Translations under genes and position numbers: made by a program
Notes under the pieces: model-generated
Database searches by the model: none
What the model was told of the DNA's origin: nothing
Seen by the model: only the letters and a program-made list of their open reading frames with translations
In this document: positions 6,538 through 62,260 of the stretch, piece after piece
Layout: every line of letters begins with the position of its first letter
Position numbering within the stretch: the stretch's first letter is position 1
Origin: the human T2T-CHM13v2.0 reference genome, Homo sapiens
NCBI RefSeq assembly: GCF_009914755.1
Contig: NC_060935.1
DNA: 64,000 nt
Direction: 5' to 3' (one strand)

Positions 6538-6668
6538 CGGCCCTCAGACATTCATACAGCTTCCTTATTTTAATGTACTGGGAAGAGATAGAAACGTCTT
6601 GTCGAAGTAACTCTTTCAGTGCTGGGCATCTGTGCTTTATCATCTGGCTGCTCAAATGAAAGTTGAAC
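6538..6668 (-). pseudogene. CASP1-like exon 9 (probably used as a non-coding 3' exon of CARD17)
   Basis: tttcag|[32 protein letters not shown] (stop 6570-6572); donor gtatg at 6537. Confidence 0.9.
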
Positions 6669-11552: not shown

Positions 11553-11674
11553 CTCTGTCAACTTTTCTTTCCATATCCTTTTAGCTTCGTCTAGGGAGCA
11601 AAGCTTGATGCTTCCTCCTGAGCCTGAGGATGTAGGCATAGCAGGGCTGTCCCACACTGCCACAGCCTGAGGAG
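11553..11674 (-). pseudogene. Decayed CASP1-like exon 4 (CARD17 locus)
   Basis: Encodes ...[33 protein letters not shown]; acceptor reads GA instead of AG (11675-11676); 122 nt versus 116 in CASP1. Confidence 0.9.
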
Positions 11675-28430: not shown

Positions 28431-29109
28431 ATGGCATTATGATGTTCGACATTGAAGGATTTCAAGAAATCAGAAATTCACCTTCACTTTTAATGAGTTT
28501 AGGATTAGAAAAAGGCTCATGACTGCAACTGAATTTGTAGTTCTTCCAGTTCTTCAAAATCTTCACATCACTGAGTGACTGATTTAACCCCAAACTATTT
28601 TCCCCTGCACAATGCAGGTGTATAATTTTGCATTCAATGCACTGTAGTGTTTCTTCAGAGTGTCATGCTCTATCTGCTATTGCTTTTATGTTTGTTGAGT
28701 GTTATACATTCTTAAATAGACTGTGAAATCTTAGGGATCTAGGGTTGAATCCAAATTTACTTTGTATTTCTCAAAACTCTTAGCAAATGTTAGATATGTG
28801 CAGTTTCTCTTCATGAATTTGTCAATAGTAAACTCTGGGATTTGGAAAAATGTCCCTTTTCACATCATGCTTTCACTATGATAACTGTCTTTCTTCTCCC
28901 CACCTCTCCTGCTGTATTCTAAATTCTTCAAAGTTACATACTTTCTATAATTTATATCTGTATTCCTAAAGCAGAAAGTCTTGAAAATGGTTTTCTGAAG
29001 GAAAAAATGGTGCTACTAGCCAGTTCATGTCTTAAGAATCAAGTTTAAAGACTCTAAATCCATTACCTGCTCAAAATTTCATCTTCTGTTTTTTTCTAGT
29101 GTGGTTAAA

Positions 29110-29224
29110 AAAATAGGACATTCTTTCATTTTTATATCAGGCTTAATGGAATGCTTATGGAACTGTGTGTTTTTAAACAGACATGACTCAAAAATAGGTG
29201 CATAAAGAGAGAATTCTTGGCTTC
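29110..29224 (-). pseudogene. Diverged copy of the CASP1-like terminal 3'UTR exon
   Basis: tttttcccacag acceptor; flanks align by eye with 5760-5900. Confidence 0.6.
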
Positions 29225-29542
29225 CTGTGGGAAAAAACAAATAAAGCAAACATTTAAAAAACTTCCACCAAAAGATATGCAAGTTATAGTGTCATACCAC
29301 CAATGGGACTATACACATTCTGAAGAGGAAATAGCCCATGCTGTGTCTAAGTATTCCCCTACTGAAATGAGAGAGAAACACCTATAAGTGAGCATTTGTG
29401 ATCTTATTACCACCTCAGAAATCAACATCAACTGACCCTCAAAAGGAGTGGTTTAAGCAAAGAACTTTTAGAGAAGAGCAATGTACTCTGCACTGACCAG
29501 AAGGAAGGTGTTTTTTCAGAATTCCCTGTTTTTTATACTATG

Positions 29543-29730
29543 GGTAGAGTATCTCTTTTCCAAAATGCTGGGGACACAAAATGTTTTGGATTTCGTACTT
29601 TTCTGAATTTTGGAATATCTACGTTATAATTACTAGTTGAGCATTCCTAATCCCATAACCTAAAATCTGAAATACTTCAATAAGCATTTCCTTTGAATAT
29701 CATGTCAACATCCAAAAAGGTTTCGGTTTT
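29543..29730. mobile_element. Tigger4a-like element, first part (remainder at ~34650-34690)
   Basis: Homologous to 6222-6410; interrupted by an L1 block. Confidence 0.65.
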
Positions 29731-34520: not shown

Positions 34521-34808
34521 CAATATCAATATGAGATACTCTTATGGTTTTTATGGAATGAAGGCATTTATACTAGCAATTTTTGAGGACTTTTCAATGT
34601 CACTTTTTGATAAAAAATTGTGGGAGGTAATAGGAAAGAATGTAGATATTGGAGGATTTCAGATTTTGAAATTCTGGATGAGGAATAATACATTTAGAAC
34701 TGGAAATCTTGACCAGAACAGAACTTCGTTACTATTCTCCAACGTCTGCAAACCCCCAACACACACATACACACACTTGCTCACAGACATTCATACAACC
34801 TACTTTTT

Positions 34809-34903
34809 TTAATGTCCTAGGAAGAGAAAGAAACATCTTGTCAATGTCACTCAGTGTTGAGCATCTGTGCCCTACCATCTGGAAGCTCAAATGAAAATCA
34901 GAC
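34809..34903 (-). pseudogene. Orphan CASP1-like exon 9 copy with premature stop and frameshift
   Basis: V*FSFELPDGRAQMLNTE/VTLTRCFFLFLGH*; paralogue of 4590-4683. Confidence 0.85.
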
Positions 34904-35989
34904 CTAAAAAGAGAAAGTCTGTGGACCTTTTGTGATGTAGAATCTTACACCAGAAAAACTGCAACAAATACAGCAACATAAATGACAAAAACAAAAAGTA
35001 TTGGCACCTGCGACAGTTTAAACTGTGCTGAGGAATCATGATGCTGCCACCCCTGCACATCTCCCTGTCATCTTATCCTTTGACTGGAGAGTGTTCTGAA
35101 GGAATCCCTTTACTCCCTGGAATGCGTTCCTTCAACTTCTTAAGATTGCCTTAACAGTTAATTTTTACTGAGGGTAACAATTTACTTCTGCTTTTTGATA
35201 TTCTCTGCGCAAAGACTGATCACAGATGGAGTCTCAGGTTGTAGTAGAATATGCACGTTAGTACAGAAAATGTATGCTCAAACAGTTAATAAAGTCCAAA
35301 GAAAAAGGGATCGTAAAGTGTTCAACTATGAAGGTTTTTAAAAGGTCAGACATTCACTTTGATTTAATAGGATAAAGATTAGAAAAGGCTCATATTTGCA
35401 GGTGAAAGGGTAGTTCTTCCAATCCTCCCTAAATCTTAACATCCCTGAGTGAGCGATTTCACCCCAAACTCATTTTCTTTGCACCATGCAGGGACTTCAC
35501 TGTGCACACCATGCACCCTAGAGTTTCTTTAGGGTGTCATGCACCATCTGCCAAGCGCTTCATTTTTGATGGCTGTCTTACCTTTTCAAGAAGTCTGTAA
35601 ACTACTGAAGTTAATTCAAAATTTACTTTCTCTCTCTTAAATACCTTAACAAAGGGTAGAAATATGGAGGTTCTGTTCATGGATTTGTCGGTAGTAAACT
35701 GTGGGATTTGGGAAAAGTCCCTTATCACACTGCACTGTCACTGTCATAACTATCTGTCTTCTCCCCATCTCTCCTGCTGAGCTCTAAATTTTTTGAAGTC
35801 AGGTACCTGTGGTAACTTGTATCTGCATCCCTAAAGCGGAAAGCGTAGCAAATGGTTTTTCAAATGAAAAAATGGTGCCAATAGCCAGTTCAGATCTTAC
35901 TAATTAAGTCTAACATTCTAAATTCATCACTCCCTCTGATTTCCCACCCCTGTTTCTCCAGTGTGGAAGAAAATTGAGGACATGTTTTT

Positions 35990-37415
35990 ACTTTTATATT
36001 AGATTTATTAAAATGTTCAAAAAAGTCTATTATTAAAAAGACATAATTCCAAAAACCATTACAGAATGAAGAAACTCTTGGTTTCCTATGGGGAAAAAAA
36101 TAAAAAACAAACATAAAAGAGAATTTTGCTAAAAGAAATGTAAGTTATAAAGTTATACCACCAATGGGAACATATGCAATCTTAAAAGGAAAGGCCACAT
36201 GCTATTTAAAAATGTTACCCTGCTGAGGTTAAGGGGAGAAACATCTAAAAGTCAGCCTTTATAGACTTATGGCCACTTCTAGGTCCATATCAGCTGACCC
36301 TCAGAAAGGGTCTAAAAGAAAAACTTCGGGAGAAGAGCAATGTGCTCTACACTGACAAGAAGAAAGGCATTACTTCAGTATTTTCTGTATATTGTACTAT
36401 GGCTTGATTATCCGTTATCCAAGTTGCATGCTACCAGAAGTATTTTGAATTACAGATATTTTTGTATATTGGAATATCTGCATTATACTTACTGGTTTAT
36501 TATCCTTAATCCAAAAACCTAAAATTTGAAATGCTTTAATAAGGATTTCCTTTGAATATCATGTGGGCACTCACACAGTTTTGGATTTTAGAGCATTTCA
36601 AAATTTAAATTTTTGGATTATAAAATTCTAGGCCTGTAGACCTAGAGTCCTTTACTAAAATGGACTTTCAGTACACTTTCCTCAAACTTCCCACACACCT
36701 GACATACCTGCCCACAGACATTCATACAGCTTCCTTATTTTAATGTTCTGGGAAGAGGTAGAAGCGTATTGTCAAAGTCATCCTTTCAGTGCTGGGCATC
36801 TGTGCTTTATCATCTGGCTGCTCAAATGAAAGTCGAACCCGAAAGAAAGGAAAGTCTGGAGAACGGTTTTTCTGAAAAGTTTGTTGACTCATGCCAAAAA
36901 GACTACAACAAATATAGCAAAATAAGTGACAAAAACAAAAAGTACTTGTGTCTGCAACAAGTATAGCCATGTGCTTATCTAAGCATTGAATGACCTCCTA
37001 GGGGCTTTTTAAATCTGTGGTTGGATCTAATAGCCATGAGGGACACAGGCAAATTAGAGTCCACTCATTTGTCTCTGCAGGTCAAGGGGAGGGTGAAAAT
37101 AAATGATTGTTTTATTGAGGCTGTGGGTCTTAATAGATTTGATTTGGCCCCCAGGCTTGTTCACTCTCCAAAGAACTTCAAAACTCTTTTGGAAAGAAGG
37201 GCTTTATGGGAAGATAAACATGTCTGGATCTGCTTCCTATGCTTCCAATTGCAATAGCCAAGCATTCAGGGAAGTAGAGTGAAATAGCATCCACTAGAGC
37301 CCTACCTTGCAGAAAATTTCCTCCACATCACAGGAACAGGCATATTCTTGCAGATGTTCAATGAGTCTCATAATAAAAAGAGAGCCCTTTGTGGGGTGTC
37401 TCCAAGAAACATTAT
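35990..37415 (-). pseudogene. CASP1P1: Caspase-1 pseudogene fragment: exon 8 (37306..37415), exon 9 (36708..36838, stop 36740-36742), 3'UTR exon (to 36085, AATAAA 36004-36009)
   Basis: [36 protein letters not shown] and [32 protein letters not shown]; no upstream exons 5-7 seen. Symbol assigned from my memory of gene order. Confidence 0.82.
36401..36638. mobile_element. Tigger4a-like DNA transposon
   Basis: Paralogue of 6222-6458. Confidence 0.7.
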
Positions 37416-38663
37416 CAGTTGATAAAGCACATTTCACATCTCAAGACTGGCTCTTGCCTGAAGAAAGAGAAGAAACTCTAGTATTTCTGCTCCAGCTGAG
37501 GCATGTTTTGGAATTCATCTATTTTCCATACACTTCATTGTAATTTTAGTGAATACATTCGAAGTTCAGCGAGTATATTTTTACTGATACTCTAAAGGGT
37601 GCTGTATATGGTGCAGGTATTAACGTGGCCTAATCCCTGAGTTCAAAAAGTCGTAAATGTAGTAGAGCGTTAGGAAAAGGCAGAATGTGGTAAAGGGAAG
37701 GGATTGCGGTTTGGAAAAGAAATATCTAAATGTGCATCCCCAAAGTGGCGTTACTGACTGTGATTTAAGTTAATTGTCCATTCCGATATGTAATAGACTC
37801 AGCTATACAGGGAACGGTAATAATTTCATGCACAAGAGATATCTGAGGCTACAAAAGTGTCTGAGCTAAGAGAGAATATGTAATATTCAGTCTACACAGG
37901 GAAATTATGTTAATAAATTATCAATTTATGTTCTTCACATTAAATTTTAATTAAAATATAATACATTGACTGTAAGATATTTACACAAAAGAGTTAACTA
38001 TAAAAATGATAAAACAGAACAAAACTAGAAATCTAAGAAGAATCAATAAGAGGATGATCACATCATAATGGAGAATAAGAAGTTGTTATGAAGAAGAGAA
38101 ATATTAAAGAGAAACAATATTAATTTATTACATGGTAGACACAGAAGTAATGAATATGTGAAAATTATACAAAGGAAGGCATAAGAGAAAAGCAGTAGCA
38201 ATAGCTCTGTGTATAATCACAGACACATTCTTTAATGACACATTTCAGCCAATTATAATGGTCATTAAATGTATATTAATAATAAAATTCTATTTAGAAC
38301 GACAGCTATCTTAGTTGAAGGAAGTAGATAAGAGATAGGGTGGAAACAGGTGTCTCTGCAAATGTTTTGTGAAATTAAGGGAGTAGGTAGTTATTTTTCC
38401 TCAGGAGAGCACTATGATATAGTTGGGATTTGCATGGCAGAATGTGGAGCTTGGCTTAATATGGGAGTTATAAATGACTAAACTGGAGTTTTTGACAGTC
38501 ATGTGGAAAGGAGGAGTAAGGAAAATGAAAGAAAAGAAAAACACAGAAATCAGCAAAATTGATGATGAGAAGCCAGGGGCCTACAAAGAGCTACATAGAG
38601 AGCAGTGAATGTCATGTGGAAGGCTGGGATCAAAGGATATTAAAGAACAGTTCTGTCTAATGT

Positions 38664-41600
38664 AACAGAAATCCAGGTTAGTGCAGAAACTTGGATAGCC
38701 ACATAAAGAATGGAAGACAGTGTTAGGCATCTACCACCCCATTCCCAAACCAAGATCTTCTGGGAACCAAGAAACACTTTTTCTTTCAGTGAAGAGGTAA
38801 GCAAAAGGATCCCAGCAACCCTTATCTACATATTATATCTTCAGACTTCACTATTATAATCTCCTACTGCCTGGATTCTACATAGCTGTGTTGCCTCAGA
38901 GAAGGAGCTGACAATCTGTCTCATGCCCTGTGGCCACATAGCTACTGTGCTATGCCATCTTGGTATTGGAATTACAACTGTAGTCTGTCTTGTTCTTGGG
39001 GCAAGTAGCCATGACATCCCTTCAACTTAGAGGTTAAGGCACGGCTGAATCACTCCAGCCTGGTGGCCCAAAATTCTTAAGCCATGCTGGAAGCAGCTGT
39101 TACATCTTACCGTGTGAGGCCAAACAGAGGTGGAGCTTCTATACCTATCCTTCCCTCTAGCACCTTGGGCCAGAACTGAAGCAATCTCCTGGGAAAACAG
39201 TACCTTAACCACTCAGAGCTGTCACACCTCCCAAATACCTATGCCAAAGTGAAAACCTGCATCTCAGGGAAAGAATGTATGGGCTTCTTAGAATAATCAC
39301 ATCCCCCAAGTCTGAACTCTAGCAGCATATTACCCACTTGGGGAATCAATGTCCTGGCTAAACTTGCCAACTGTGCCACGCAAGGCTGAGACGATGCAGT
39401 AGCCCACATCCCAAGGACGCAGACCAGTGGTCAAGCTGAGACACTCTGCCCTACAGGCAAAACAACTCTAGTACCCTGCTTCTCTGCATCTGGACTAGTG
39501 TCCTACAGTATGAGCTGCTGAGATACCCCACTTGCTGGAAAGTAAAATAATCACTGTGCTGCTTCCTGCCTCTTCTCACAGCCCAAGTGGCAGCTGCGCT
39601 CTGCCATTCTGGGCTACTTCCTTCCACTGTACCTGGCCTCACCAAATCTGGGATACTACTGAACCCCAACATCTCAAGGTTTATAGTCACAACTACAAAG
39701 TATCTCATCTCCTGGGACCTGAATTGCCAGAAAGGCTTACTAGTTCAAATTTCAAAATCGTAGATATACCCTGTTTCCTGGACCCAAACCTCCAAAATAT
39801 CTCCTTTTACACAGAGTCAGGGAAGGGCTGTACTCTGTCCATGAGGGGTAAAATTACAGCTAAAAACTAGTCCCCTGGGTCCAAGCTGCTGGTGAGCCTA
39901 GTGGGTGCCTCAGAGTCACATGTCCAGTCTCTGTGGGCAACCTATATGCAGCCCAGCCACAGAGAATGAACAAGGACCTCAAGACCCAGATGCCACAATA
40001 TGTTTGTAGGACCCTAAACTAGGACTCTAGCCACACTTTTGCTCCAACCAAGAACCTGAATTTGGAACTCAACTATTTGTAAGCCACGTCAGCTCTAACA
40101 ACAAAAGGAGTCCCCTTGATTAAGTATCCCCATTGTGGAGAAAATGATAATAAGAGAGATCCAAAACCTCTTGACACTGAGGGCATTAACAACATATGCC
40201 ACTGACACTGCTCCTATAAGCTGCTATAGCTGCTATAGCCTACTGAAGTGTCCATAGTCATTGCCAAAATTGAATGCACCTAAAGAAGTGGCATGGAATC
40301 TATACAACTATACCTACCCCAAAATAGAGCCACCATACTCTTTCCTAATGGCACACTAAAACCCAACTTCAGGTGAAAGTGGAAGAGGCAGTTGTTTCAT
40401 CATATTCACAGATGTCAACACAGGGAAACAAAGAAACATGAAAAACAAGAAAATATGACACCACCAAAAGAACTTTATGACTTTCTTGTATCAAATTCCA
40501 GTGAAAAGAAAATCAATGAAGTGCCAGAAAAAAATTCAAAATAATAATCATAAGGAAACTAAGATAAAAGAAAATATAGATAAGGAATTTAATGAAATCA
40601 AGAAATCAATTCACAATCTGAATGAAAAATTTAACAAAAAATAGAAATTAAAAATAAAAGCAATTCCTGCAGCTGAAGAATCTCATAAATAAAATGAATA
40701 GTCAATATAAAGCTGCAAGCAGAACGTACAATCTCTGAAGTTAAAGGTTATTTCAAATCACCTTCTCATAAAAATTAAAGAAATAAGAATAAAAATGAAA
40801 AAAAGCCTAAGATATATAGGACACCATTAAGTAAACAAATGTTGATATTATGGGAGTTTCAAAAAGAGAAGAAAAAAGGCAGAGGATAAGTTTATGAAAT
40901 GCTGGCTGAAAATTTCCCAAGTCTGTAGAGAGACATGAACATATAGATCCAGGAAGCTCAATGGTTCTCCAAAAGGTTCAACCCTAATAGGTCATTTATG
41001 AGGCATATCATAGTCAAAGTGTTAAGTCAGAGACTAGGAGAGAATTATACAAACACACAGACTAGTATTAAGTCACATAGAAGATAATCCCTATTAGACT
41101 AACAGTACATTTCTTCAAAGAAATCTTCCAGGAGAGGAGAGAATAGGATAATATATTCAAAGTGTTGTAAAAAATAGCAACCAATAATATTACATCCAGT
41201 AAAATTATCTGTCAGAAATGAGGACGAAGTAAAATAAAAAAGTCTTTCCCAGAGAAGCAAAAACCTAAAGAAATTCACCACCACTAGACCAAACCTACAA
41301 GAAATGCTCAAGGGAGTCCTACACCTAGAAGCAAATAGATAATAATAATTATCATCAAAAAACCTCAAAAGTATAAAACTCACTGGGAGTGCAGATATAC
41401 AATAAAGAAAGAGAAAGGGGTCAAACCTTATCACTACAGAAAACCACTCAAACACAATACAAGAGGAATACAATACATAAAACAATACAGAAGGAAGGAA
41501 ACAACAAAGGATACACAAAACAACCAGAAAAAAATAACAAAATAACAGGAATAAGTCTTCACTTATCAACAATACCCTTTAATGTAAACCAATTATATTC

Positions 41601-45790: not shown

Positions 45791-46504
45791 TCTAACTGTT
45801 ATGCATATATTAGAGTTTTGATTAATTCATGTCTTTGCCAGTATTGCTAGCCTTTGAATTTTAGCAATTCTAATATATGCATAACAGTTTTTCATTATGG
45901 TTTTGATTTGCATTTTTCTGATGACCAATGATGTTGATTTTTCTATAATCTTGAAAAATCTTGAGTAAATTATTTTCAATTTTTTAATCTTTCTCTCTAA
46001 TTCTCACTCAATATTCAAGCTCCATATAAAATTTTATAAAAATAGAAAATATTCTCTACTTGTTTCAACCTATCACACTCAAGACTTTCAGGTCCATTTC
46101 AGCATTATTATTTAAATTACATTTTGAACATATCAACATATATTACCTCATAGTATTATTAGTTATTTTGTGCTTGCAGGGCTGAAATTCCCAATTAGAT
46201 TACTTATAAGTATAGCTAGACATTGTAGTATATATATTGAATATATAAATTGCACATTATCCCATCATATAATAAATATTAAATTAGCATAAGGATCAAT
46301 TAATAAATAAAAGTGATTTTAGATTTCTATTTCAGCTTGGGGTGGAAGGTGATATGAATATTGGGTGAGGAACATGACCTCATACTATTGTATGGTAATT
46401 TAGAAAAGTTTTATTTTTGAATCCTCAGAAAAATGTATGTTAAAGGGAAATTTTTCTATCCCCTTCCTCTTCTCTCTCCCAATTTCATGCATTGATCATA
46501 TCAT

Positions 46505-46620
46505 CTTTCCAGACATCTCTTTGCTTAGTATCTGGAAATGTTCTTTGGGGCAAAACTTAAATATATATGTGAATTCTGTTGATACATACACTTTAAATTC
46601 ATCATGGACTTCTCAAAACG
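46505..46620 (-). pseudogene. Vestigial caspase exon-4 homologue downstream of CARD18
   Basis: cccttacag|116 nt: (A)F*EVHDEFKVYVSTEFTYIFKFCPKEHFQILSKEMSGK|atgat; same length and phase as CASP1 exon 4. Confidence 0.7.
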
Positions 46621-46652
46621 CTGTAAGGGATAGGTTATAAAATGAATAATGA

Positions 46653-46910
46653 TTTTTTATTATACTTTAAGTTCTAGGGTACATGTGCACGATGTGCAGG
46701 TTTGTTATATATGTATACATGTGCCATGTTGGTGTGCTGCACCCATTAACTCATCATTTACATTAGGTATATCTCCTAATACTTTCCCTCCCCCCTCCCC
46801 CCACCCCACAACAGGCCCTGGTGTGTGATGTTCCCCTTCCATGTCCAAGTGTTCTCACTGTTCAATTCCCACCTATGAGTGAGAACATGCGGTGTTTGGT
46901 TTTTGTTCTT
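46653..46910 (-). mobile_element. Young L1PA 3' end, antisense
   Basis: ttattatactttaagttctagggtacatgtgcac... Confidence 0.92.
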
Positions 46911-47351
46911 TTAACCTCCCACACTTGACACACCATGCCATATCTCTTTCCATCAACTGGATGAAAGATAACTTTGACGTTGGTAGCAAAGAGTCTAAAT
47001 TCAAAAATGTAAACAGCTTTAGTTCTTGACTCACCTCTTGGAAGAGAGCCATTCACTGTTTAGAAATATTCTTTGTGAATTGCCTTGAGTAAGAAACACA
47101 TGTCTATCATGTTTGAGCCATAACACATTTTTGAATGAATTTATTACAAAATACAGAGAGAATTTTAAGGGTGCTTTCATCTTCAATAAATAATAATTCT
47201 CTTATAAATAATCAATGTATTTAAGATCTAGGTAAGCAAGGAGCTTATTTGTCTTATATATCCAAGTATTCTCAGTCAGTGAAACACTGTCCTGAATATA
47301 GTATATGTGCAGTAAGTTTTTATCTATTGAATAAATATTACTACTTTTTAA

Positions 47352-47960: not shown

Positions 47961-48063
47961 AATCTCCATTTTCCTCTCCATCAATTGACTATGTGGATCA
48001 GTGGTTAATACTAAAGGAGATGGGCTCAAGGGGTATACTTGCTCTGAAAATGCCCTTCATTAC

Positions 48064-48125
48064 CGTAAAGAAAGGAACCACTGCTAAGAAGCCTTGCATC
48101 CTGTGTTCATTTATAGAATGAGACT
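48064..48125 (-). pseudogene. Vestigial caspase exon-3 homologue downstream of CARD18
   Basis: ttcctcag|62 nt|gtaatg; (E)SHSINEHRMQGFLAVVPFFT; flank cagtcacttatca matches the CARD17 exon-3 flank tagtcacttatca. Confidence 0.7.
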
Positions 48126-48846
48126 CTGAGGAAAGATGATTGCTATTAAAACAGTCACTTATCAATCCTGAAGATTATTCTCCCAAATACACTGTGTATT
48201 TTTCACTAACAATTCCTTTCATTGTCTAGCCGATTATTCATTTCAAGCTGTAACTATCTGGAAATAATGGGATTTGCTGATTAATGCCTTAAAATGAAAA
48301 TCATCTCTAGAAATAGGTATGTTTTCATAACTCCAAAACTGACCAAAACCACATAAGGAGTATTTTCACCATGGTGCTGTCCATCTCAGAGGTGACTGAG
48401 CTATGAGAAAAAAAAGAAGAAAAAGTGTATGTAGAAGAAAAAGTCATCTCCACTGGGAATCCAGCCTTGCAAAGATTTATTACAGAAGAAAGTAGTTAAG
48501 TGATTCTCTTTCTTTCACCCAAACACAGGGTACCTACCTCCAGCATGAAAACTTAGATAAATGAGTGAACTTACTCAGAAGAACATGTTTAGAGATTAGG
48601 GATGTTTAAAGATCAGGGATTACAGAATTCATACAACTCACAGAAACTTTTGCTCTTCTTTTGGGAAAAGGCAGTTAATAGAAATGTCTCCTTGATCCCT
48701 GAATCACAAATACTTGTGAAAATCAATAATATTTTCCCCTAAGTCTTGAAAATTTTCAAAAAAAAGTCAATAAATATTTGCTAAGATGTCTATGATATGC
48801 CAGGTTCTATGCTTGACACTGAGGCTAAAATAATAAACAAAAATTA

Positions 48847-51040: not shown

Positions 51041-52024
51041 CCCTCAAAATGTGTTTTCTCAAATAAACCAGCTGATTGCAAATGAGAATAGCCCTAACCT
51101 TAATCACTTATCTCAAATAAACACTTCCGGTCAGTGGCATATACCTCTTCTGTAGAAGAAAGTAACAAACATTCCCATTTACTGTATTTGGTGTCAACCT
51201 ATAATAATTATTTTCTCCGTAATTTATGGCTGACAAATTCAGAAAGGAGAGGAATCACATTAAGTTTTATTTTAGTTTGCTAAAGAGCTTGGAAAAAGTG
51301 CACAAACCTAAAAAATTCAGGAAATTCTTTTGGCCTTTGTTCCTGGCACCCAATGCTTTGTTAGCACCTATGCCAGAAATTTTAGAAATTGACATGAGCT
51401 AACAAATTAGAAGACATCCTGAGGCATCTAGAAGACAATGCTTCATTATTTAACACTATATACACAGGGAAAAGACAGCTTAAGCATAATTAATAGCCAG
51501 TGTTTTGCTCTGAAGGGTGCAAAGCGATGACATGCCATCACACTATCTTGACTCCACAAATCTCCATTCCTCAGACATTAAGTCATATCTTGTTTCACCC
51601 TGCCCATGTGGACTTGAAATGCTATCAGTGCTTTTATGAACACTTTTTTTGTGGAAGCCTGATGTCTGGCAATGGAGTATCTGCCATGGATTTTTCTCTA
51701 TTATTTTCCCAGAAAGGAAGTTGTGTTTATTTTGTTGAGTAATTGTCATAGACCTGGGTCTGAACAACTAGATAAGAACATTACAAAGAAGCAACGCTAT
51801 TTAAAATTCTGAGCTGGGACTTCATTTTATTCCCATCACAGCAGACTCTCAGTGCTAAAAGCACCAAAGTAAGCTGTACATGTCTCTACAGGATTGCAAA
51901 GGAACTAAACAGAAAGGAAGGGAAAGGGAGGGACTTTCTTAATTACATTACAATCATCATGACCTTCATTATTATTGATGAATTATCCTCTGTTGGTATG
52001 AGGAGAGAAAGAATAAGAAGAAAG

Positions 52025-52184
52025 TAATATGAGAGAATGAAAGATTTATTGGAAATTGATGAAATTAATCAGGTTTGAAAAAAGCACTGTTGTTTTGTTT
52101 TGTTTTTTTCTTTCACGAGAATATCTTCTCCCTTGGAAGAAGCTCTGGGAAGTCTCTGAAGTGCTCCAGAGTTCCATCTTCTCT
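52025..52184 (-). other. CARD18: CARD18 non-coding exon 3 (3'UTR)
   Basis: Acceptor ttttctccctccacag at 52185-52186; AATAAA at 52045-52050, with further AATAAA at 51826-51831 and 51726-51731. Confidence 0.75.
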
Positions 52185-52898
52185 CTGTGGAGGGAGAAAA
52201 GTGGTATTGGAATGGGCCAGCTCAGATACAAGAGCCTGCATCTGGGCTCTTAGGAGGCCTAGAAATACAAAGGGATAGGCTACAGAGAATGGTCTGTAGA
52301 CTAGCCCCATGCAAGTAGACCATATTACACAAAAGAAAAGGCAAAGGAGATGACTTCCAACGAGAATCCATATATAATTTCATGCAAATATAATTATTTA
52401 GTGCATATTTAATTTTATATACACACTCAATTTATTCTTTGACAATTCCATCATCATTGTATATTCTGAAAAGTACTTAATAGGGAGATGGGGTAAGAGC
52501 AGGGTGGTAGGTACAAAAAGAGCTTATACCTTCTCTTCTAATAAATACATGGGCTTCTTAGGCTCAAGAGGGAGTGATATTGTACATTGCTCCCCAGGAC
52601 CATTAAAAGATTCAGGATAAAACATCTAGGCTCTTTAAATGAACTACAGTAATGATCTACCACCTACATAGAATTAGAGATGAGCTGTGGTCAGCAGGGA
52701 GTACTGAGAGAACAGGTACAAGGGACACAAAAACGTAGACAGAAGAGACATAAGCTAGAGCCATGCATAAAGGAATGGAGTCTGAGGCTAAAATGATAGG
52801 AACCCTATTATCAACTGACAAGACAAGTGAAGAAAATCATAACTGAATTCAAGATACAGGGCCTATTTGGACATTAGGTTGAATCATTCCACCTTACC

Positions 52899-53812
52899 TT
52901 AGTGCAAACCCATCTTTGAGGCAAGTTGAGGGTCTTCTTCACAGAGATGCTTGATAAATTTGCAGCAAGACTTGGGTCCTTTTCCAGTAACAAGGTCAAT
53001 CAAGACTCGAGCCTTATCCATGACAGTGTCATTTTCATCTCTCACTTTGTTCATGTCTTCCTGGCTAATAACTTCATCCTCTAATAGGCAATCCAGCAAG
53101 GCATTTATTGTGCCTGCACCCACTGAATGGATAAAAATTCTTCTCTTTTTACGCAAGAGTTGGTCTGTTGGAAGCACAAAGATTCCTCAAATAATGAACA
53201 TGACACAATTTCCCTCTCAATTTACCAACAGGGTAACAATCATTTAAACATTTCTCTCCACAAGTACAGTAATCCCAAGGAACGGTCTTATACCTTTGCA
53301 TTTACTCCACGTACTTCCTTCTGATTCTAGCATTACCTACATATGCTCACTGAGTGACCTGGGAAACTTGACTTCATGATTTTTCTGTGAATCTCCTAAA
53401 AATCAGAAGTCATTCTATTCTGACACATCCCAGTTTCTTGAATTTTGAAGGGAATTGACAGTTTCATGAATTTTGAAGGGAATTGACTGTTTCCTTTGAG
53501 AACAACAGCTACTGATACCCATCCTGTGCCCATTCTCATCCTGAACTACATAACTCTTCAAATGTGGACAACACTAGCAAAATTATAGCAGATACCAGTA
53601 GGATCCCAGATTCTTCCTGGCCTTTATCTGTTCCTTCAAAAACGCTGTGCAAGTCTGGGCATCTTCCCACCCTGCCTCTCCCTTCTTCTTTCTCTCTCCA
53701 CCCCAAGGCTGCCCACACAAACCTTCACAAAGCCTAATGAGAAAGGCAGTCCTTTCCCAAACTAATTCCTCCCTAAGACCTATCCTCTTACTGGGGAAGA
53801 CTCACCAGCCAT
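52899..53812 (-). CDS. CARD18: CARD18 (ICEBERG), CARD-only protein, 90 aa; join(53806..53812,52899..53164)
   Basis: gccATGGCTG|gtgag; caacag|ACCAACTC...; MADQLLRKKRRIFIHSVGAGTINALLDCLLEDEVISQEDMNKVRDENDTVMDKARVLIDLVTGKGPKSCCKFIKHLCEEDPQLASKMGLH*. Confidence 0.97.
53431..53493. repeat. 28-bp tandem duplication in CARD18 intron 1
   Basis: cagtttcttgaattttgaagggaattga / cagtttcatgaattttgaagggaattga / ctgtttc. Confidence 0.9.
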
Positions 53813-54206
53813 GGCTCCTCACGTTGGCACTTGCAATGTGTGTTACACTTGCAATGACAGGCAAGGTAGCTCTATCCTTTTAGGCAGGGCGTGTACACAG
53901 ATCAATGAACAATACTTACACCTACACATGTGTATTTATAATTATTGCCCAAGAAGCTGTTAACTATTGTCATTTCCCAAGGTATTTTTACACAATTGAA
54001 TCTCAGATTGTAGCATGAACTGTGCCCATAAGAAAATTGCTTTACCATTCCTTGGTGGGTGAGAAACAAGAATAGGAGAGAATTGAGAAGGCACATACAG
54101 AGCTAAACACATGCAGTAAACAATCTTTAATTCACTGAGATTTAAATGGAAAGTAAAATCACAGTATAGGGTAGTTGTGCCACCTAAATCAAGTACTAAG
54201 AGTTCC

Positions 54207-54935
54207 TTTTTTAAATTGTGGTAAAATACACATAATATAAAATTTACCATCTTAGCCATTTTACAGTATCCAGTTCAGTGGCATTAAGTACATTCACATT
54301 GCTGTGTAGCCATCAATATCATCCAACTGTAGTTGTTTTCATTTTGGGAAATTGAAACTCTATACTCCTTAAACAGTAACTCTCTATCCTTTCCTTCCAT
54401 CAGTCCCTGGCAACTAACATTGTACTTTCTGTCTTTATGAATTTGACTTCTCTAGGTATCTCATGTAAGTAGAATTATACAGTATTCATTTTTTGATGCC
54501 TGACTTATTTCACTTAGTGTAATGTCCTCGGTGTTTATTCATGTTGTGGCATGGGTCACAATTTCCTTTCTTTCTGAAGTTGAATAATACTCCATTCTAT
54601 GTATGTACCACATTTTAGTTTACCCATTCTTCATTGAGCACAAATTTCTTCCCTTTTGCTATTGTAAATAACACTGCTATGAACATGGTATACAAATATG
54701 TTTTTGAGATTCTGCTGTCAATTATTTGAATATATACCCAGAAGTGGAACTGACAAATCATAGAGTAATTCTATTTCATTTTGTTTTGTGAAATCGGTAT
54801 GCTGTTTTCCATAGCAGCTGCACTGTATTACATTCCCACATATAAAGCAGAAGCGTTCCAGTTTTTCCATGTCCTCACCAATACATATTATTTTTCTGTT
54901 CTTTTGATAATAGCCATCCTAATGGGTGTGAGATG
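54207..54935 (-). mobile_element. L1M 3' end, antisense
   Basis: aaatttaccatcttagccatttt...agccatcctaatgggtgtgagatgg. Confidence 0.85.
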
Positions 54936-55107
54936 GACTAAGACTTCTTACCTTCCTTTCATTGTTTTTTACCTAAGCTCTAGGCAGTCTCCAGACGCAG
55001 AAATGGTGTATGAAGCAGTTTTGCTATTTGGAATAAAAGTGCTTTGTTACGTAAGGCTCTTTTTCTTCAGATGGCACCATTTTAAGTAACACTGTATTAC
55101 AAAGATT

Positions 55108-58016: not shown

Positions 58017-58455
58017 TTTTTATTTATTTATTTTAGATTCAGGGGGTGTATGTGCTTGTTTGTTACATGAGTATTACATGGGTAATGGTGGAGATTGAGC
58101 TTCTAATGTATCACCCTAATAGTAAACATTGTACCTAACAGGTAATTTTTCAACCCTCCCACCCTTTCCTATTTTAGAATCCCCAGAATCTATTTTCTCC
58201 ATCTTTATATCCAAGTGTCCCCATTGTTTAGCTCCCAACCTCTATAGAAAACTCAAATAACTGAAAATAGAACTCTATAGATATCCCAAAGAACTAAAAA
58301 TAGAATGACCATTTCACCCAGCAATTTCACTACTCGGTATCTACTCAAAAGAAATGAAATCATTATATTAAAAAGACACTTGCACATATATGTTTATCCC
58401 TGCACTACTTACAATAGCAACCTAAGTACCCACCAACAGTTGATTGAATAAAAAA

Positions 58456-58505
<50 letters not shown>

Positions 58506-58878
58506 TACTAAATGCTATACAACCATAAAAAAGCATAAAGTCCAGTTCTTTGCAGTAACATCGACGGTCATTATCTTATTATCTTCAGTGAAGTAACTCA
58601 GACACAGGAAGTCAAATACCATGTGTTCTCACTTATAAATGGGACCTAAACAATGGGTACCATCGACATACAGAGTGGTGTAATAGACAGTGGAGACTCC
58701 AAAAGGTGACAGAATGGATGAGGTTTGAAAAAAAATACTTATTGGATACAATTTCACTATTCAGGTGCTGGGTGCACTAAAACCCCAACTTCACCACATT
58801 GCAGTATATTCATGTAAGAAATATCAGTTGTACCCCTAAGTATATAAAAGTAAAAATAAAAAAATTAAAAATAAAAAT
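58017..58878. mobile_element. Two L1 3' ends in opposite orientation (antisense 58017-58240, sense ~58245-58878)
   Basis: T-rich start and A-rich end; L1 3'UTR motifs. Confidence 0.8.
58459..58502. repeat. (AT)n microsatellite
   Basis: About 22 perfect AT units. Confidence 0.97.
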
Positions 58879-60454
58879 CCTATGTTTAGATGATTGGTGG
58901 TGTAGATATGAGGGGAAAGAATTTAGCTGGATTACTAGTTAATGTAATAGTTAAAGTTTATTTTAGAATAAAATTTTGAAACATGTGGTTACATGTAAGC
59001 AAACTAAAATATATCTATGGCACAAGATAATAAATACTACTGGTGTAAATAGAGTGAATTTCTGACTCTAAACTTCTTATGCATATTTGGAAGGATTTTG
59101 AGCAGAGAAAATTTAATTTGTTAGCTTAAGTACTTGAAAGAGTGACTCATCTAAATTCCTATGCATGAAATGTCATTGCCTATGAGTTGCATTGCTCAGT
59201 GTTTGAATGTGGTACAATAAGAGTACTGTCAATTTAAGTGTAGGCTAAACCCTCGTGTACCTCATGCTAATAACAGATCGATCCAAGTTAAAGTAGATGC
59301 ATATAAGTCACTCAAATAACTGGTTTCACCATAGTTAATACTATTTTCTAAATGACAGTCATCTGTAATGATGAATAACCTGCTCATGTGCTTTCTTGGG
59401 TTAGTACATGTAAATTAATAGCTTCTTGAAAGTTGCTATACCAACAGTATTTAAATCCTTACCTCTTGCATTATAGAAACTATACTTTGATTTGCTTACC
59501 TTTTTTTATCTCTAATTCACTTTATTGTGATATAATTTACATGCGCTTATGTAAACCCATTTTTTGTGTAAAGTTCAAAGTGCTTTGCTAAACGTGCACA
59601 TTGCCAAAGTCTACTTATAGAATATTTACGTTATCTTAATAAGTCCAATTTCAGTCAGTTATAGAAAACCTAAGGTCAAGGAAACCACTGATGTGATTAC
59701 TAACTATCACCAGGGATTAGCTTTGCTTGTTCTTTATTTTCATATAAATGGGATCATACGGTATGTACTGTGGGTGTAAGTTTCTCCTCAACTCTGAGTC
59801 TACCAGGTTCTACCTTGCTTCTGCGTCTCTGTGCTGTGCCCTGTAATCCCCCTCAAGATAATTACAGGGCTCACTCATGTTTATTTTCCAGGGATCAGTA
59901 TTCCTCATTGTTAAGCAAATTGGAAGCTGCTGCTTCATATATTTTGTCTGTTTTTGTTTGTTTTAGACAAGAGTGTAAATCCAGTCTCTATTAAGCCATG
60001 TTGACAGAAAGTAGACGTCTCACGTCCTTAATTTTAACTATAAATTTTCACCTCGGGTTTCATGTACTACAGCCTAACTTTAGAGACATTCCTTCTTTCC
60101 ATTCTCATAAAGACCTCTTCCTCTCAGTCCTCTGAAATTTCAGTCTCAAGGTTTTGTTCCATAAAACCTTATTTCAGATTCTTCTTTCACTCACTTGCCA
60201 CTTCCTTCCTTATCTCTTCCATTGGCCAGTAAATATTTCTGTTTTTACGCCAATCAAAAATAGACACAATTTACCCTATTTCATCAAACTTTGACTTTAT
60301 GAACAAACACATCTAACATAGAATTTCTTCTGTGTTCTGTTTTACAGAACCCTGTTATTCTTTTCCCTAGAATTTGGAGATAACCTATTTTTGAGTACTG
60401 CACTTTGTACCATCTATAATTGCTGCTGGAATTTTAGTTATAAAAGCAGGGACT

Positions 60455-60794: not shown

Positions 60795-62124
60795 TTATCT
60801 GGATCAGAACGTTTCAGTTCTTGTTTATACAGGAACTCAGTAAATATTTATCAAAAAATTTTTACACCAAATGTTTTCCACAATCTAAATATATAATCGA
60901 CTATTATTCCACATCACAGGTTATCTTCACAGTTTATTTTTTTCTCTATGAGGAAAAAATATTTGTATCTCTTTTATCTCTCAGATTTTTAATATTTCAA
61001 TACATATATTCAGCATGTATTGACTTTCTTTGCTATCAGAACTTAGTGTTTGGGTATAATTAAAAAGCAAAACATAGCACAATGTGAATAATTTACATAA
61101 AATATGTTTGTGTATCATTTGTGTAAAATATGTAGGTGGCTTATCATATACATTTGTTTTGGCTTGTATGAATAAATAAATGAATGTAACATATAATATG
61201 GGTCTTACAAATATTTCCACAAGGTAACAACAACAAGAATATATTTGGAGTTACTTTATGAGTTGTGTGATGAAGAGCGATCCATGTGCACTTCTCCAGA
61301 AAATGTTATTTTTGAATAAAGGAAATAATAAATCCTAAATAAAGAAAATAATAAATGCTTTATCCTTTTTTTAAAAAAAAGTCGAAGATTGTAAATAACA
61401 AATTAAATCAAGTAGGAAAAATAAAGGCTCAAATTTCTTTGTCCATATAAAAAGAGTAACATGATGGGCTTAGATTATTATAAAAGACACATGCAAAGGT
61501 TGTAGCATCACGGGTGAAGGAATAGGGCTCTAGAATCATAGTTCTGTAATTCAGAAGGCAAAACTATTATTTTATATTTGATACTATGTCATGTTTCCTA
61601 GAAAATATTATTTTATTTGATCTTCAAAATTTACTCAAGGCAGAACAGCTGCAAAGTGATACAGTAGCAACTGAACCCACATTTGTGCTGAAGATTCTTC
61701 TATACCTTCCTACAGATGCCCTTTTCTGATAACAGACCAGCCAGTAGGTAACACTGAGGATGCTTTACCTCAGTTAACATTGACTGGTCCATTTCCCATA
61801 GCAGTCATGGACAGAGACTACATTTGCTAAGGCACATTGGGGCTAAATATTAAATATGTCTACATGTCTAGACAAAATAATTAAATAAATAATATATTAA
61901 ATAAGAATAAGGTTTTGCTTGAGCATTTTAGAAATTCTGTCTGCTCTGCCCAGGCCTTGAACACCACTTGAAATACTCTACTCTCTACTATACTATCTCC
62001 TTTTAAAAATTATATTACCTTAAATAAGATGATTTGGGGAATTGGTCTTTTATATATAGTGCTATGTATATATATATTTCAATTTTTTACCCATTTAATA
62101 CATATGATACTTGTATGATGTGGA

Positions 62125-62260
62125 TAATATTATTAATCTCATTTTACAGATAAGAAAAATGAAGCACAGAGCTTGAACACCTTCCCAATGTCACAAAGCA
62201 AGGAAGTGGCAGAGCCAGAATTCAAATCCAGGTGGCCCAGCTGCAGAATCTGGTTCTTCA
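62125..62260 (-). mobile_element. MIR
   Basis: cattttacagataagaaaaatgaagcacagag...ggcagagccagaattcaaatccagg. Confidence 0.8.

What the first reader, a model, noticed from the sequence alone, without database searches (positions are those of the whole stretch)
46505..46620. Fossil caspase exon 4 behind CARD18: ICEBERG looks like the head of a lost, divergent caspase
Seen: on the minus strand a good acceptor (tataacctatcccttacag) is followed by exactly 116 nt and then atgat, the position where a gt donor is expected. In phase 1 it reads (A)F*EVHDEFKVYVSTEFTYIFKFCPKEHFQILSKEMSGK. Knowledge: CASP1 exon 4 is 116 nt, phase 1 to 0, [39 protein letters not shown]. The two align without gaps over 39 codons. 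The prodomain cleavage site AVQD corresponds to EVHD, K-x-C and E/Q/K/S are kept, and KFCP..F..L resembles CASP4/CASP12 (KLCP..F..L). Inference: CARD18 was once a longer inflammatory caspase, much more diverged than the CARD17 copy, that may survive intact in other mammals. I know of no annotation of this exon but cannot check.
Basis: partly seen in the sequence, partly recalled or inferred. Interest (0 to 1): 0.85.

Follow-up and report, generated by a model that had tools for sequence, protein, structure and literature searches.

The report
Decayed caspase exon 4 behind CARD18
About 5 kb downstream of the human CARD18 (ICEBERG) gene lies a dead, unannotated remnant of caspase exon 4, next to a remnant of exon 3, which indicates that this small inflammasome inhibitor is the surviving front end of an old full-length caspase gene.

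Summary

- **The sequence.** Window 46505-46620 (minus strand) is 116 nt behind an intact acceptor. It has TGA as its second codon, and A replaces G at donor position +1.
- **Similarity.** A DNA profile of exon 4 from CASP1/4/5/12, built without the candidate, finds it at E=2.6e-6 (23.1 bits). In 100 shuffled windows the best score was 16.0 bits.
- **Flanks.** Similarity continues about 32-34 nt into both flanking introns.
- **Not a repeat.** The stretch is single-copy in the genome.
- **Context.** A second relic, CASP1-type exon 3 (48064-48125), lies collinear between the CARD18 CARD exon and the candidate. CARD18's introns still align to CASP1 introns 1-2. CARD18 is therefore the head of a once longer CASP1-type gene.
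- **What is missing.** No trace of exons 5-7 was found.
- **Unresolved.** The exon 4 block is no closer to CASP1 than to CASP4/5/12, and no placement is rejected.
- **Age.** CARD18-type CARD-only proteins occur in manatee, rhinoceros and bats, so the lineage looks older than the primate origin stated in print.
- **Survivors.** Whether an intact copy survives in another mammal could not be examined.

This is an ordinary decayed pseudo-exon and a modest evolutionary footnote.

The parts
46505..46620 (-). Relic of inflammatory-caspase exon 4 (the CARD-p20 linker exon). It is 116 nt, phase 1 to 0, with an in-frame TGA at 46613-46615.
   Evidence: Sequence. nhmmer exon 4 profile of CASP1/4/5/12 gives E=2.6e-6 and 23.1 bits over 46585-46509. 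0 of 100 shuffled windows reach 23.1 bits; the best is 16.0. blastn to CASP4LP, CASP5 and CASP4 exon 4 gives 65-67% identity over 117-119 nt, E=2.7e-10 to 2.8e-7. The stretch is single-copy in the genome.
46621..46652 (-). Retained 3' end of intron 3, with polypyrimidine tract and acceptor AG (46622-46621). It is cut off upstream by a young repeat insertion.
   Evidence: Alignment with the paralogue flanks. Over the 34-nt flank block 46621-46654, identity to CASP1 is 19/34, to CASP4 20/32 and to CASP5 19/32.
46471..46504 (-). Retained start of intron 4. Donor position +1 is A instead of G (46504). The relic reads atgatatg..tgcatgaaat; CASP12 reads gtgatatg..tgaaat and CASP4 reads gtgctatg..tatatgaaat.
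   Evidence: alignment. Identity to CASP12 is 21/28, to CASP5 20/31, to CASP4 18/31 and to CASP1 only 13/31. The BLAST alignments run on to 46464.
46653..46904 (-). Young high-copy repeat inserted about 32 nt upstream of the acceptor. It ends in an A-run. I take it for a 5'-truncated L1 3' end; that name is from my recall of the consensus, not from a tool.
   Evidence: At least 2,065 first-look candidates genome-wide. All 39 scored copies elsewhere in the genome are 92-96% identical. RefSeq masks 46632-46916.
48064..48125 (-). Relic of CASP1-type exon 3: 62 nt against 63. Acceptor AG and donor GT are kept, and it is open in phase 1. Its homologous flanks extend over 48005-48186.
   Evidence: blastn of CASP1 chr11:105037087-105037266 against 48005-48186 gives 63.8% over 185 columns, E=1e-10; CARD16 and CASP1P2 exon 3 regions also hit, but no CASP4/5/12 sequence does. 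Alignment, sequence. K2P distance to CASP1 is 0.456, n=177.
52898..53164 (-). CARD18 exon 2, the CARD domain. It is the same 267-nt length as CASP1 exon 2. The stop TAA at 52899-52901 sits one base before the exon 2 donor.
   Evidence: RefSeq annotation. Pfam CARD PF00619 at E=2e-27. 171/267 nt identical to CASP1 exon 2 without gaps, against 113/255 for CASP4 and 100/237 for CASP12. Sequence of the exon end.
53806..53855 (-). CARD18 exon 1. With intron 1 it aligns to the CASP1 5' region.
   Evidence: RefSeq annotation. Window 52577-53949 aligns to CASP1 chr11:105037974-105039322; with the exons excluded, 1,004 ungapped sites are 65.6% identical, K2P 0.46.
51800..52184 (-). CARD18 terminal (3' UTR) exon. 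It lies inside what was intron 2 of the ancestral gene.
   Evidence: CASP1 intron 2 positions 1-313, 536-796 and 1021-1075 are collinear with window 52897-52577, 52355-52105 and 48186-48132.

Best explanation
Window 46505-46620 is a non-functional, neutrally decaying remnant of exon 4 of an inflammatory caspase gene. That gene's exons 1-2 survive as CARD18 (ICEBERG).

**Shown here.** A gene with CASP1-type architecture once ran on the minus strand from about 53.9 kb downward. Its parts were exon 1, a 267-nt CARD exon, a 63-nt exon 3 and a 116-nt exon 4 in phase 1 to 0.

**Inferred.**
- The gene became a CARD-only decoy when translation came to end at or just after the end of exon 2 and a new terminal exon inside intron 2 took over.
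- The downstream exons then lost constraint. Exon 3 lost one base. Exon 4 gained a TGA and lost its donor G.
- Repeats inserted: a young L1-like element about 32 nt from the acceptor and an Alu-like piece in intron 3.
- Exons 5-7 were deleted or replaced.

**Age.** CARD18-type CARD-only proteins occur in primates, a rhinoceros, a manatee and two bats, and form a group apart from CASP1-type CARDs of the same orders. Both the duplication and the truncation therefore probably predate the radiation of placental mammals.

The relic itself does nothing today. Its value is as physical evidence of how the inhibitor arose.
For: **Homology of the exon.**
- nhmmer profile built without the candidate: E=2.6e-6, the second-best hit in the window after the true CASP1P3 copy; the next hit has E=0.36.
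- 0 hits at or above 23.1 bits in 6.4 Mb of locally shuffled window.
- Ungapped identity 56/116, with 0 of 20,000 shuffles reaching it.
- The candidate is as close to CASP4, CASP5 and CASP12 (100/173, 102/173, 91/157) as those genes are to each other (CASP4-CASP12 93/152).

**Exon borders are homologous.** The acceptor and the first ~34 nt of intron 4 align to the paralogues.

**Not a repeat.** The only genome match is the stretch itself.

**Same gene as CARD18.**
- Same strand and collinear order: CARD exon, exon 3 relic, exon 4 relic.
- The exon 3 relic region and the CARD18 introns show the same distance to CASP1, K2P 0.456 and 0.46.
- Exon 4 has 20 codons before K-x-C-P, as in CASP1. CASP4 and CASP5 have 18 and CASP12 has 13.

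**Old age.**
- 21 of 21 CARD18-type proteins found are CARD-only. They include Diceros, Trichechus, Rhinolophus and Saccopteryx.
- In a 35-sequence CARD tree rooted on CASP4/5/12 they form one group apart from CASP1-type CARDs of bats, manatee, mole, rodents and primates. Support is SH-aLRT 81.5 and UFboot 90.
Against: - **Excess divergence from CASP1.** The exon 4 block is significantly more diverged from CASP1 (p-distance 0.514, 95% CI 0.448-0.586; JC distance 0.87) than the CARD18 introns and the exon 3 region are (K2P about 0.46). It is nearer to CASP4/5/12 (JC about 0.6). Its start of intron 4 matches CASP4/5/12 but not CASP1. A simple 'old CASP1 duplicate' does not predict this.
- **No link through the introns.** No intron 3 or intron 4 homology beyond the ~35-60 nt exon flanks ties the exon 4 relic to CASP1-type DNA.
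- **Catalytic exons absent.** No relic of exons 5-7 was found (best E 0.76-2; tblastn). That the gene ever had a catalytic half here is inferred, not shown.
- **Ambiguous 3' end.** The older CASP1-type 3' relic (28443-29730 and 34645-35029) is less diverged (K2P 0.26-0.35) than the CARD18 unit. It may belong to a different duplication.
- **Modest tree support.** Placement of Saccopteryx is weak (8/49), and the non-primate proteins are automatic gene predictions.
Confidence: 0.75

Rival explanations
1. The exon 4 relic is genuine but did not belong to the original CASP1-type ancestor of CARD18. It comes from a CASP4/5/12-type neighbour. One route is a deletion that fused a CASP1-type head (exons 1-3) to the body of a CASP4-type gene, as in the carnivoran caspase-1/-4 fusion. 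Another is gene conversion of exon 4 by a CASP4-type paralogue.
For: - The exon 4 block is closer to CASP4/5/12 (JC 0.59-0.62) than to CASP1 (0.87).
- Its intron 4 start matches CASP12, CASP5 and CASP4 (21/28, 20/31, 18/31) but CASP1 only 13/31.
- The ML tree puts it with CASP4/5, though with only 50% support.
- A CASP4-type pseudogene relic lies directly upstream of CARD18, so CASP4-type DNA existed in this neighbourhood.
- Gene conversion is reported as frequent in this locus (passages of PMC11630849).
- A caspase-1/-4 fusion in carnivores is mentioned in PMC13076529.
Against: - The AU test rejects none of the three placements: with CASP1 p=0.31, with CASP4/5 p=0.66, with CASP12 p=0.42.
- Exon length is 116 nt with 20 codons before K-x-C-P, matching CASP1-type rather than CASP4/5 (110 nt) or CASP12 (95 nt).
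- CASP1 exon 4 evolves fast: human and lemur CASP1-type share 24/38 residues. CASP1 may simply be a long branch.
- The order and orientation fit one collinear gene without any rearrangement.
Confidence: 0.18
2. The match is a chance resemblance in AT-rich unique DNA, found because the reader scanned many positions.
For: The protein-level similarity alone is weak: 9/38 identical and BLOSUM62 13, with 6 of 63,887 offsets per strand scoring as well. The 5' half of the stretch matches poorly, 22/58 nt.
Against: - Profile E=2.6e-6 for the whole window on both strands.
- 0 of 100 shuffled windows reach the score, and 0 of 20,000 shuffles reach 56/116.
- Independent blastn hits from three paralogues run across the exon-intron border.
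- Splice-site positions coincide with those of the paralogues.
- It sits in the expected place and orientation behind the CARD exon and the exon 3 relic.
Confidence: 0.02
3. The stretch is part of an old transposable element, or it is a still-used alternative or terminal exon or regulatory element of CARD18 rather than a dead relic.
For: It directly abuts a repeat insertion. The acceptor is intact. Only 10% of the window is masked in the supplied annotation, so the absence of masking says little.
Against: - The only genome match for 46420-46655 is the stretch itself.
- No RefSeq transcript uses it.
- It has TGA at codon 2 and no donor.
- Its 36-codon open part has no Pfam match.
- I had no RNA data and no Dfam library, so neither use nor very old repeat origin is strictly excluded.
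Confidence: 0.04

Closest known systems
CASP1P3 / CARD17P copy of CASP1 exon 4 (window 11553-11668)
   Same: Both are dead copies of the same exon, on the same strand, behind a CARD-only gene in the same tandem cluster.
   Different: The CARD17P-unit copy is young: 96/116 ungapped identity to CASP1. It is followed by recognisable exons 5-9 and is annotated. The CARD18 relic is at 56/116, stands without exons 5-7 and is unannotated.
CARD16 (COP) and CARD17 (INCA): CASP1 duplicates turned CARD-only decoys
   Same: The mechanism of origin is the same: tandem duplication of a CARD-caspase, early termination after the CARD exon, and decay of the rest. CARD16 keeps exon 3, as the CARD18 unit once did.
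   Different: CARD16 and CARD17 are 246-264/267 identical to CASP1 in the CARD exon; CARD18 is 171/267. The literature dates CARD17/18 to the primate ancestor (PMC11630849, passage). My tree suggests CARD18 is much older.
CASP4LP and human CASP12 (decayed inflammatory-caspase genes of the same cluster)
   Same: Both are pseudogenised paralogues. The relic's exon 4 plus flank is 64-67% identical to CASP4LP, CASP4 and CASP5 over about 118 nt.
   Different: Those genes retain most exons in order. Behind CARD18 only exons 3 and 4 are traceable.
Carnivoran caspase-1/-4 fusion gene (mentioned in PMC13076529; details recalled from Eckhart et al. 2008)
   Same: It would be a parallel if the CARD18 ancestor combined a CASP1-type CARD with CASP4-type downstream exons.
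   Different: This is a hypothesis only. The data here cannot tell a hybrid from a long CASP1 branch.

Membership tests
Inflammatory-caspase exon 4 (CARD-p20 linker exon), as a pseudo-exon | Significant nucleotide similarity to exon 4 of CASP1/4/5/12 | tested here: met
   nhmmer E=2.6e-6, 23.1 bits. 0 of 100 shuffled windows reach it. blastn E=2.7e-10 to 2.8e-7 to CASP4LP, CASP5 and CASP4.
Inflammatory-caspase exon 4 (CARD-p20 linker exon), as a pseudo-exon | Exon borders at homologous positions, with similarity running into both introns | tested here: met
   The acceptor AG aligns with the paralogue acceptors. The donor position aligns, with G>A at +1. Flank identities are and the alignment.
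Inflammatory-caspase exon 4 (CARD-p20 linker exon), as a pseudo-exon | Length and phase as in CASP1 exon 4 (116 nt, phase 1 to 0) | tested here: met
   116 nt. CASP1 exon 4 is 116 nt, phase 1 to 0. CASP4 and CASP5 have 110 nt and CASP12 has 95 nt.
Inflammatory-caspase exon 4 (CARD-p20 linker exon), as a pseudo-exon | Collinear and co-oriented with the upstream exons of one gene | tested here: met
   The order on the minus strand is CARD18 exons 1-2, the ex-intron 2 blocks, the exon 3 relic (48064-48125), then the exon 4 relic.
Functional caspase gene (peptidase C14) | Open reading frame and usable splice sites in exon 4 | tested here: not met
   TGA at 46613-46615; donor is AT instead of GT.
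Functional caspase gene (peptidase C14) | Catalytic exons 5-7 (p20) downstream | tested here: not met
   No exon 5, 6 or 7 profile hit between 16 and 64 kb (best E 0.76-2). No tblastn hit with CASP1/4/5 below E=0.5 in 38.7-52.9 kb.
CASP1-type lineage (as opposed to CASP4/5/12-type) | Noncoding (intron) homology to CASP1 and presence of the 63-nt exon 3 | tested here: met
   This holds for the CARD18 unit and the exon 3 relic: 1,004 noncoding sites at K2P 0.46 and the exon 3 region at 0.456. Only CASP1-type loci hit the exon 3 relic; for the CARD18 unit the sole exception is a 65-column CASP4 hit at the CARD-exon acceptor (53164-53224, E=0.014).
CASP1-type lineage (as opposed to CASP4/5/12-type) | Exon 4 block closer to CASP1 than to CASP4/5/12 | tested here: not met
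   Identity to CASP1 is 88/181, to CASP4 100/173, to CASP5 102/173 and to CASP12 91/157. JC distance is 0.87 against about 0.6. The AU test cannot reject any placement, so the lineage of this exon stays open.
CARD domain (Pfam PF00619) | Profile match above the curated cut-off for the upstream CARD18 exon | tested here: met
   E=2e-27, 95.5 bits against a cut-off of 23.9.
Interspersed repeat / transposon | Multiple copies in the genome | tested here: not met
   Window 46420-46655 matches only itself at E<=10. Very old repeat families below BLAST sensitivity were not testable because no Dfam library was available.
Intact CARD18-type full-length caspase in another mammal | A protein of about 400 aa with a CARD18-type CARD | not testable with these tools
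   The protein searches saw only 48-152 aa and 78-248 aa. No mammalian genomes were on hand.

The most novel reading that the evidence does not exclude
CARD18 is not a primate-era copy of CASP1. It is the last working piece of a separate, ancient (pre-placental-radiation) inflammatory caspase lineage. That lineage either combined a CASP1-like CARD and exon 3 with CASP4/12-like downstream exons, or branched off near the CASP1 / CASP4-11 / CASP12 split. A full-length or less decayed version could still exist in some non-primate mammal.
Probability: 0.15. Interest if true: 0.6.

Novelty: new member of a known kind. Interest (0 to 1): 0.4.

Why it matters
CARD18/ICEBERG is a caspase-1 decoy expressed in differentiating keratinocytes. 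Reviews treat it as a primate-specific CASP1 duplicate, and a recent locus study found it too diverged to analyse (PMC11630849 passage).

The relic exons 3 and 4 are direct physical evidence that the duplication carried more than the CARD exon. The inhibitor therefore arose by truncation of a longer gene, not by a CARD-only partial copy.

Two further results argue that the lineage is as old as placental mammals:
- CARD18-type CARD-only genes occur in manatee, rhinoceros and bats.
- Noncoding divergence from CASP1 is about 0.46 substitutions per site.

That would revise the published dating (about 74 Ma, or 'restricted to primates').

It also gives comparative genomicists fixed landmarks for asking whether any mammal keeps the full-length gene: 46505-46620 and 48064-48125.

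The relic has no expected function, so the practical weight is small.

Tried and rejected
- **Chance.** Rejected by sliding-window, shuffle and profile controls.
- **Repeat origin.** Rejected at BLAST sensitivity. The neighbouring repeats were mapped.
- **Relics of exons 5-7 behind the candidate.** None were found with nhmmer profiles or tblastn on either strand.
- **Intron 3 / intron 4 homology.** I looked for homology that would tie the exon to CASP1-type or CASP4-type DNA. Only Alu-like repeats and one weak repeat-overlapping hit (E=0.005) turned up.
- **Phylogenetic placement of the exon 4 block.** Unresolved: 50% support, and the AU test rejects none of three topologies.
- **Longer CARD18 isoforms as carriers of exon 3/4-like sequence.** The 121-154 aa proteins P0003, P0004, P0011, P0013, P0018, P0019 and P0021 have extensions that are N-terminal or read-through. 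None carries a K-x-C-P segment.
- **First CARD tree (26 sequences).** It could not separate CASP1 from the bat CARD18-like proteins because human CASP1-type sequences were the only CASP1-type sequences in it. One search added non-primate CASP1-type CARDs.
  - One search used 14 of the 21 CARD18-type proteins. P0003, P0004, P0006, P0009, P0010, P0017 and P0021 were left out as near-duplicates or partial.
  - It used 14 of the 32 CASP1-type proteins. The other 18, mostly further primate CARD16/17 forms, were left out.
  - It also held 7 human exon 2 translations.
- **Literature.**
  - Searches found no report of relic exons behind CARD18.
  - Search 49 was badly posed (any 2 of 6 terms) and returned nothing relevant.
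  - I read passages only, through 'find', of PMC11630849, PMC3775265, PMC13076529 and PMC5727156.
  - Humke 2000, Druilhe 2001, Lamkanfi 2004, Kersse 2007 and Eckhart 2008 were not read. They are known to me from recall or from citations inside those passages.
  - Supplements are closed. Supplementary table S2 of PMC11630849 (presence/absence calls per species) may bear on the dating of CARD18, and I did not see it.
Full report
**What is there.**
On the minus strand the window reads ...tataacctatcccttacag|CGTTTTGAG... An exon-like stretch runs from 46620 to 46505 and is followed by atgat. It is exactly 116 nt. Read in phase 1 it has TGA as its second full codon (46613-46615) and is otherwise open. 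RefSeq places CASP1 exon 4 at chr11:105035244-105035359.

**Is it more than chance?**
- Without gaps, 56 of 116 nt match CASP1 exon 4.
- On the minus strand 2 of 63,885 offsets reach 56: the candidate and the known CASP1P3 copy (96/116). On the plus strand none of 63,885 do; the maximum is 50. The background is 28-29 with sd 4.8.
- None of 20,000 dinucleotide shuffles of the candidate reaches 56 (maximum 49). Mismatches are 28 transitions to 32 transversions, more transitions than the 1:2 expected of unrelated sequence.
- A DNA profile built from exon 4 of CASP1, CASP4, CASP5 and CASP12, without the candidate, finds 46585-46509 at E=2.6e-6 (23.1 bits). That is second only to the CASP1P3 copy, and the next hit has E=0.36.
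- In 100 versions of the window shuffled in 500-nt blocks (6.4 Mb) the best score was 16.0 bits.
- With +1/-1 scoring, blastn from the paralogue loci hits 46464-46582 from three genes: CASP4LP (66.9% of 118, E=2.7e-10), CASP5 (65.5% of 119, E=3.8e-8) and CASP4 (65.0% of 117, E=2.8e-7). These alignments run about 40 nt past the exon end into intron 4.
- The protein-level match by itself is weak: 9/38 identical and BLOSUM62 13, with 6 of 63,887 offsets per strand doing as well.
- The AVQD/EVHD pairing lies in the poorly matching 5' half (22/58 nt), outside the significant alignment.

**Anatomy of the relic.**
A multiple alignment of exon 4 with 120-nt flanks shows that the acceptor AG and the donor position coincide with those of the paralogues.
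- *Upstream.* About 32-34 nt of intron 3 survive (46621-46652/4). They end at the A-run of a young high-copy repeat at 46653-46904. That repeat has at least 2,065 first-look candidates, and all 39 scored copies elsewhere are 92-96% identical. I take it for a truncated L1 3' end from recall of the consensus.
- *Downstream.* The relic reads Atgatatgatcaatgcatgaaat. CASP12 reads gtgatatgctt..tgaaat and CASP4 reads gtgctatgctatctatatgaaat. The donor G has become A at 46504.
- *Copy number.* The stretch 46420-46655 matches only itself in the whole T2T genome. About 500 nt further downstream are also unique. A high-copy repeat begins near 45787.
- *Masking.* Only 10% of the window is masked in the supplied annotation, so lack of masking is weak evidence.

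**Does it belong to CARD18?**
CARD18 exon 2 (52898-53164) is 267 nt, like CASP1 exon 2. It matches CASP1 at 171/267 without gaps, CASP4 at 113/255 and CASP12 at 100/237. It is a Pfam CARD (E=2e-27).
- Around the CARD exon, 1,004 noncoding sites align to CASP1 intron 1, the 5' region and intron 2 at K2P 0.46.
- CASP1 intron 2 positions 1-313, 536-796 and 1021-1075 are collinear with window 52897-52577, 52355-52105 and 48186-48132. CARD18's terminal exon (51800-52184) therefore sits inside what was intron 2.
- At 48064-48125 lies a relic of the 63-nt CASP1 exon 3. It is 62 nt, with acceptor and donor kept, and its flanks align to CASP1, CARD16 and CARD17P (E=1e-10, K2P 0.456). No CASP4/5/12 sequence hits it.
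- The order on the minus strand is exon 1, CARD exon, exon 3 relic, exon 4 relic. This is the architecture of CASP1.
- No relic of exons 5, 6 or 7 was found anywhere between 16 and 64 kb (best E 0.76-2; tblastn).
- Further down lies a young copy of the CASP1 3' part (35313-38668). It is 91% identical to CASP1P2 and 85% to CASP1, and RefSeq's CASP1P1 is its exon 8. Below that lies an older CASP1-type 3' relic (34645-35029 and 28443-29730, K2P 0.26-0.35). Whether that older relic is the original tail of the CARD18 ancestor is open.

**An unexplained discordance.**
- Over about 180 nt (exon plus flanks) the relic matches CASP1 at 88/181, CASP4 at 100/173, CASP5 at 102/173 and CASP12 at 91/157. 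For comparison, CASP1-CASP4 is 89/173 and CASP4-CASP12 is 93/152.
- The JC distance to CASP1 is 0.87 (0.68-1.14). That excludes the 0.46 seen in the neighbouring CARD18-unit DNA. The distance to CASP4/5/12 is about 0.6.
- The ML tree joins the relic to CASP4/5 with only 50% support. The AU test rejects none of three placements (p=0.31, 0.66, 0.42).
- In favour of CASP1-type affinity are the exon length and the 20 codons before K-x-C-P. CASP4 and CASP5 have 18 and CASP12 has 13.
- CASP1 exon 4 evolves fast: human and a lemur CASP1-type protein (P0052) share 24/38 residues. PMC11630849 reports positively selected sites in the CASP1 linkers (passage).
- BLAST-detected intron blocks are biased towards the best-conserved parts, which understates the neutral distance.
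- A hybrid or gene-converted origin of exon 4 remains possible.

**Age.**
- The CARD18 exon, given by reference, retrieved 17 short proteins. A second search with a lemur protein retrieved 19, of which 4 were new. All 21 are 90-154 aa and CARD-only.
- They come from simians, lemurs, a galago, two bats (Rhinolophus, Saccopteryx), a rhinoceros (Diceros) and a manatee (Trichechus inunguis).
- They end at or a few codons after the exon 2 donor. The human sequence CAC TAA G|GTAAGGTGGAATGA explains the baboon ending HKGKVE as read-through of that donor.
- A search with the CASP1 CARD exon gave 32 short CASP1-type proteins. These include three bats, a mole, Trichechus manatus, rodents and lemurs.
- In a 35-sequence tree rooted on human CASP4/5/12 the CARD18-type sequences form one group (SH-aLRT 81.5, UFboot 90) apart from the CASP1-type group (75/79). 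The position of Saccopteryx within its group is weak (8/49).
- Together with the K2P of 0.46 to CASP1, this points to an origin before the placental radiation. That time frame rests on general knowledge of mammalian divergence times.
- The passages I read say otherwise: CARD17/18 arose in the primate ancestor about 74 Ma (PMC11630849); COPs are restricted to primates (PMC3775265); CARD18 homologues are reported in various primates (PMC13076529).

**What could not be done.**
- No mammalian genomes were available.
- The protein searches could only see proteins up to 152, 248 and 154 aa. A full-length CARD18-type caspase in another mammal can be neither found nor excluded.
- No Dfam library and no RNA data were on hand.

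**Verdict.**
The finding is a genuine, unannotated, decayed exon 4 of an inflammatory caspase. With an exon 3 relic it shows that CARD18 is the head of a once longer gene. The general idea that CARD18 came from a caspase-1-like gene is already accepted. New here are the relics themselves, the evidence for great age, and the odd CASP4/5/12-like look of the exon 4 block. Interest is moderate.

Noticed in passing
window 61203-61310 (-), with 62124-62206, 58271-59028 and 54479-54968: An unannotated, decayed caspase relic lies directly upstream of CARD18. The exon 8-like piece scores nhmmer E=1.7e-13. Its translation is 56-57% identical to CASP4/CASP5 and 43% to CASP1, and it holds a stop. Noncoding pieces match CASP4 intron 7, the CASP12 and CASP4LP 3' regions, and the CASP4, CASP4LP and CASP5 3' flanks at 60-73%. 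It looks like the tail of a lost CASP4/12-type gene.
   Followed up: partly
outside the window: chr11:105166497-105166676 (-), = L014:2497-2676: A further decayed CARD-exon relic of CASP1/CARD18 type, with stops in all three frames. nhmmer gives E=1.8e-7. Identity is 129/241 to CARD18, 119/241 to CASP1 and about 100/240 to CASP4/5/12. It lies about 23 kb upstream of CARD18, with no RefSeq gene at that spot.
   Followed up: partly
window 28443-29730 and 34645-35029 (-): An older relic of the CASP1 3' end: exon 9 at 34794-34898, plus exon 10 and the 3' flank. It is 69-78% identical to CASP1 and CASP1P2 (K2P 0.26-0.35) and is split by a ~4.9 kb insertion. It is unannotated. It may or may not be the original tail of the CARD18 ancestor.
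   Followed up: partly
window 35313-38668 (-): RefSeq's CASP1P1 (37304-37420) is only exon 8 of a 3.4-kb block that also holds copies of exon 9 (36725-36838), exon 10 and part of intron 7. The block is 91% identical to CASP1P2 and about 85% to CASP1, so it is a copy of the CASP1P2 tail.
   Followed up: partly
window 4575-4683 (-) and 6555-6668 (-): Two exon 9 copies lie within the CARD17P span (nhmmer E=1.4e-21 and 2.2e-27). The second is an annotated CARD17P exon and the first is not.
   Followed up: no
proteins P0008, P0016, P0018, P0020 against P0040, P0042, P0044, P0050: CARD18-type CARD-only proteins are predicted in two bats, a rhinoceros and a manatee. They group with primate CARD18, apart from CASP1-type CARDs of bats and manatee. 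This conflicts with statements that CARD18 is primate-specific or about 74 Myr old (passages).
   Followed up: partly
window 51800-52184 (-): CARD18's terminal exon lies in former intron 2. Its upstream end (about 52105-52184) is still alignable to CASP1 intron 2, while the rest lies in DNA with no CASP1 counterpart.
   Followed up: no
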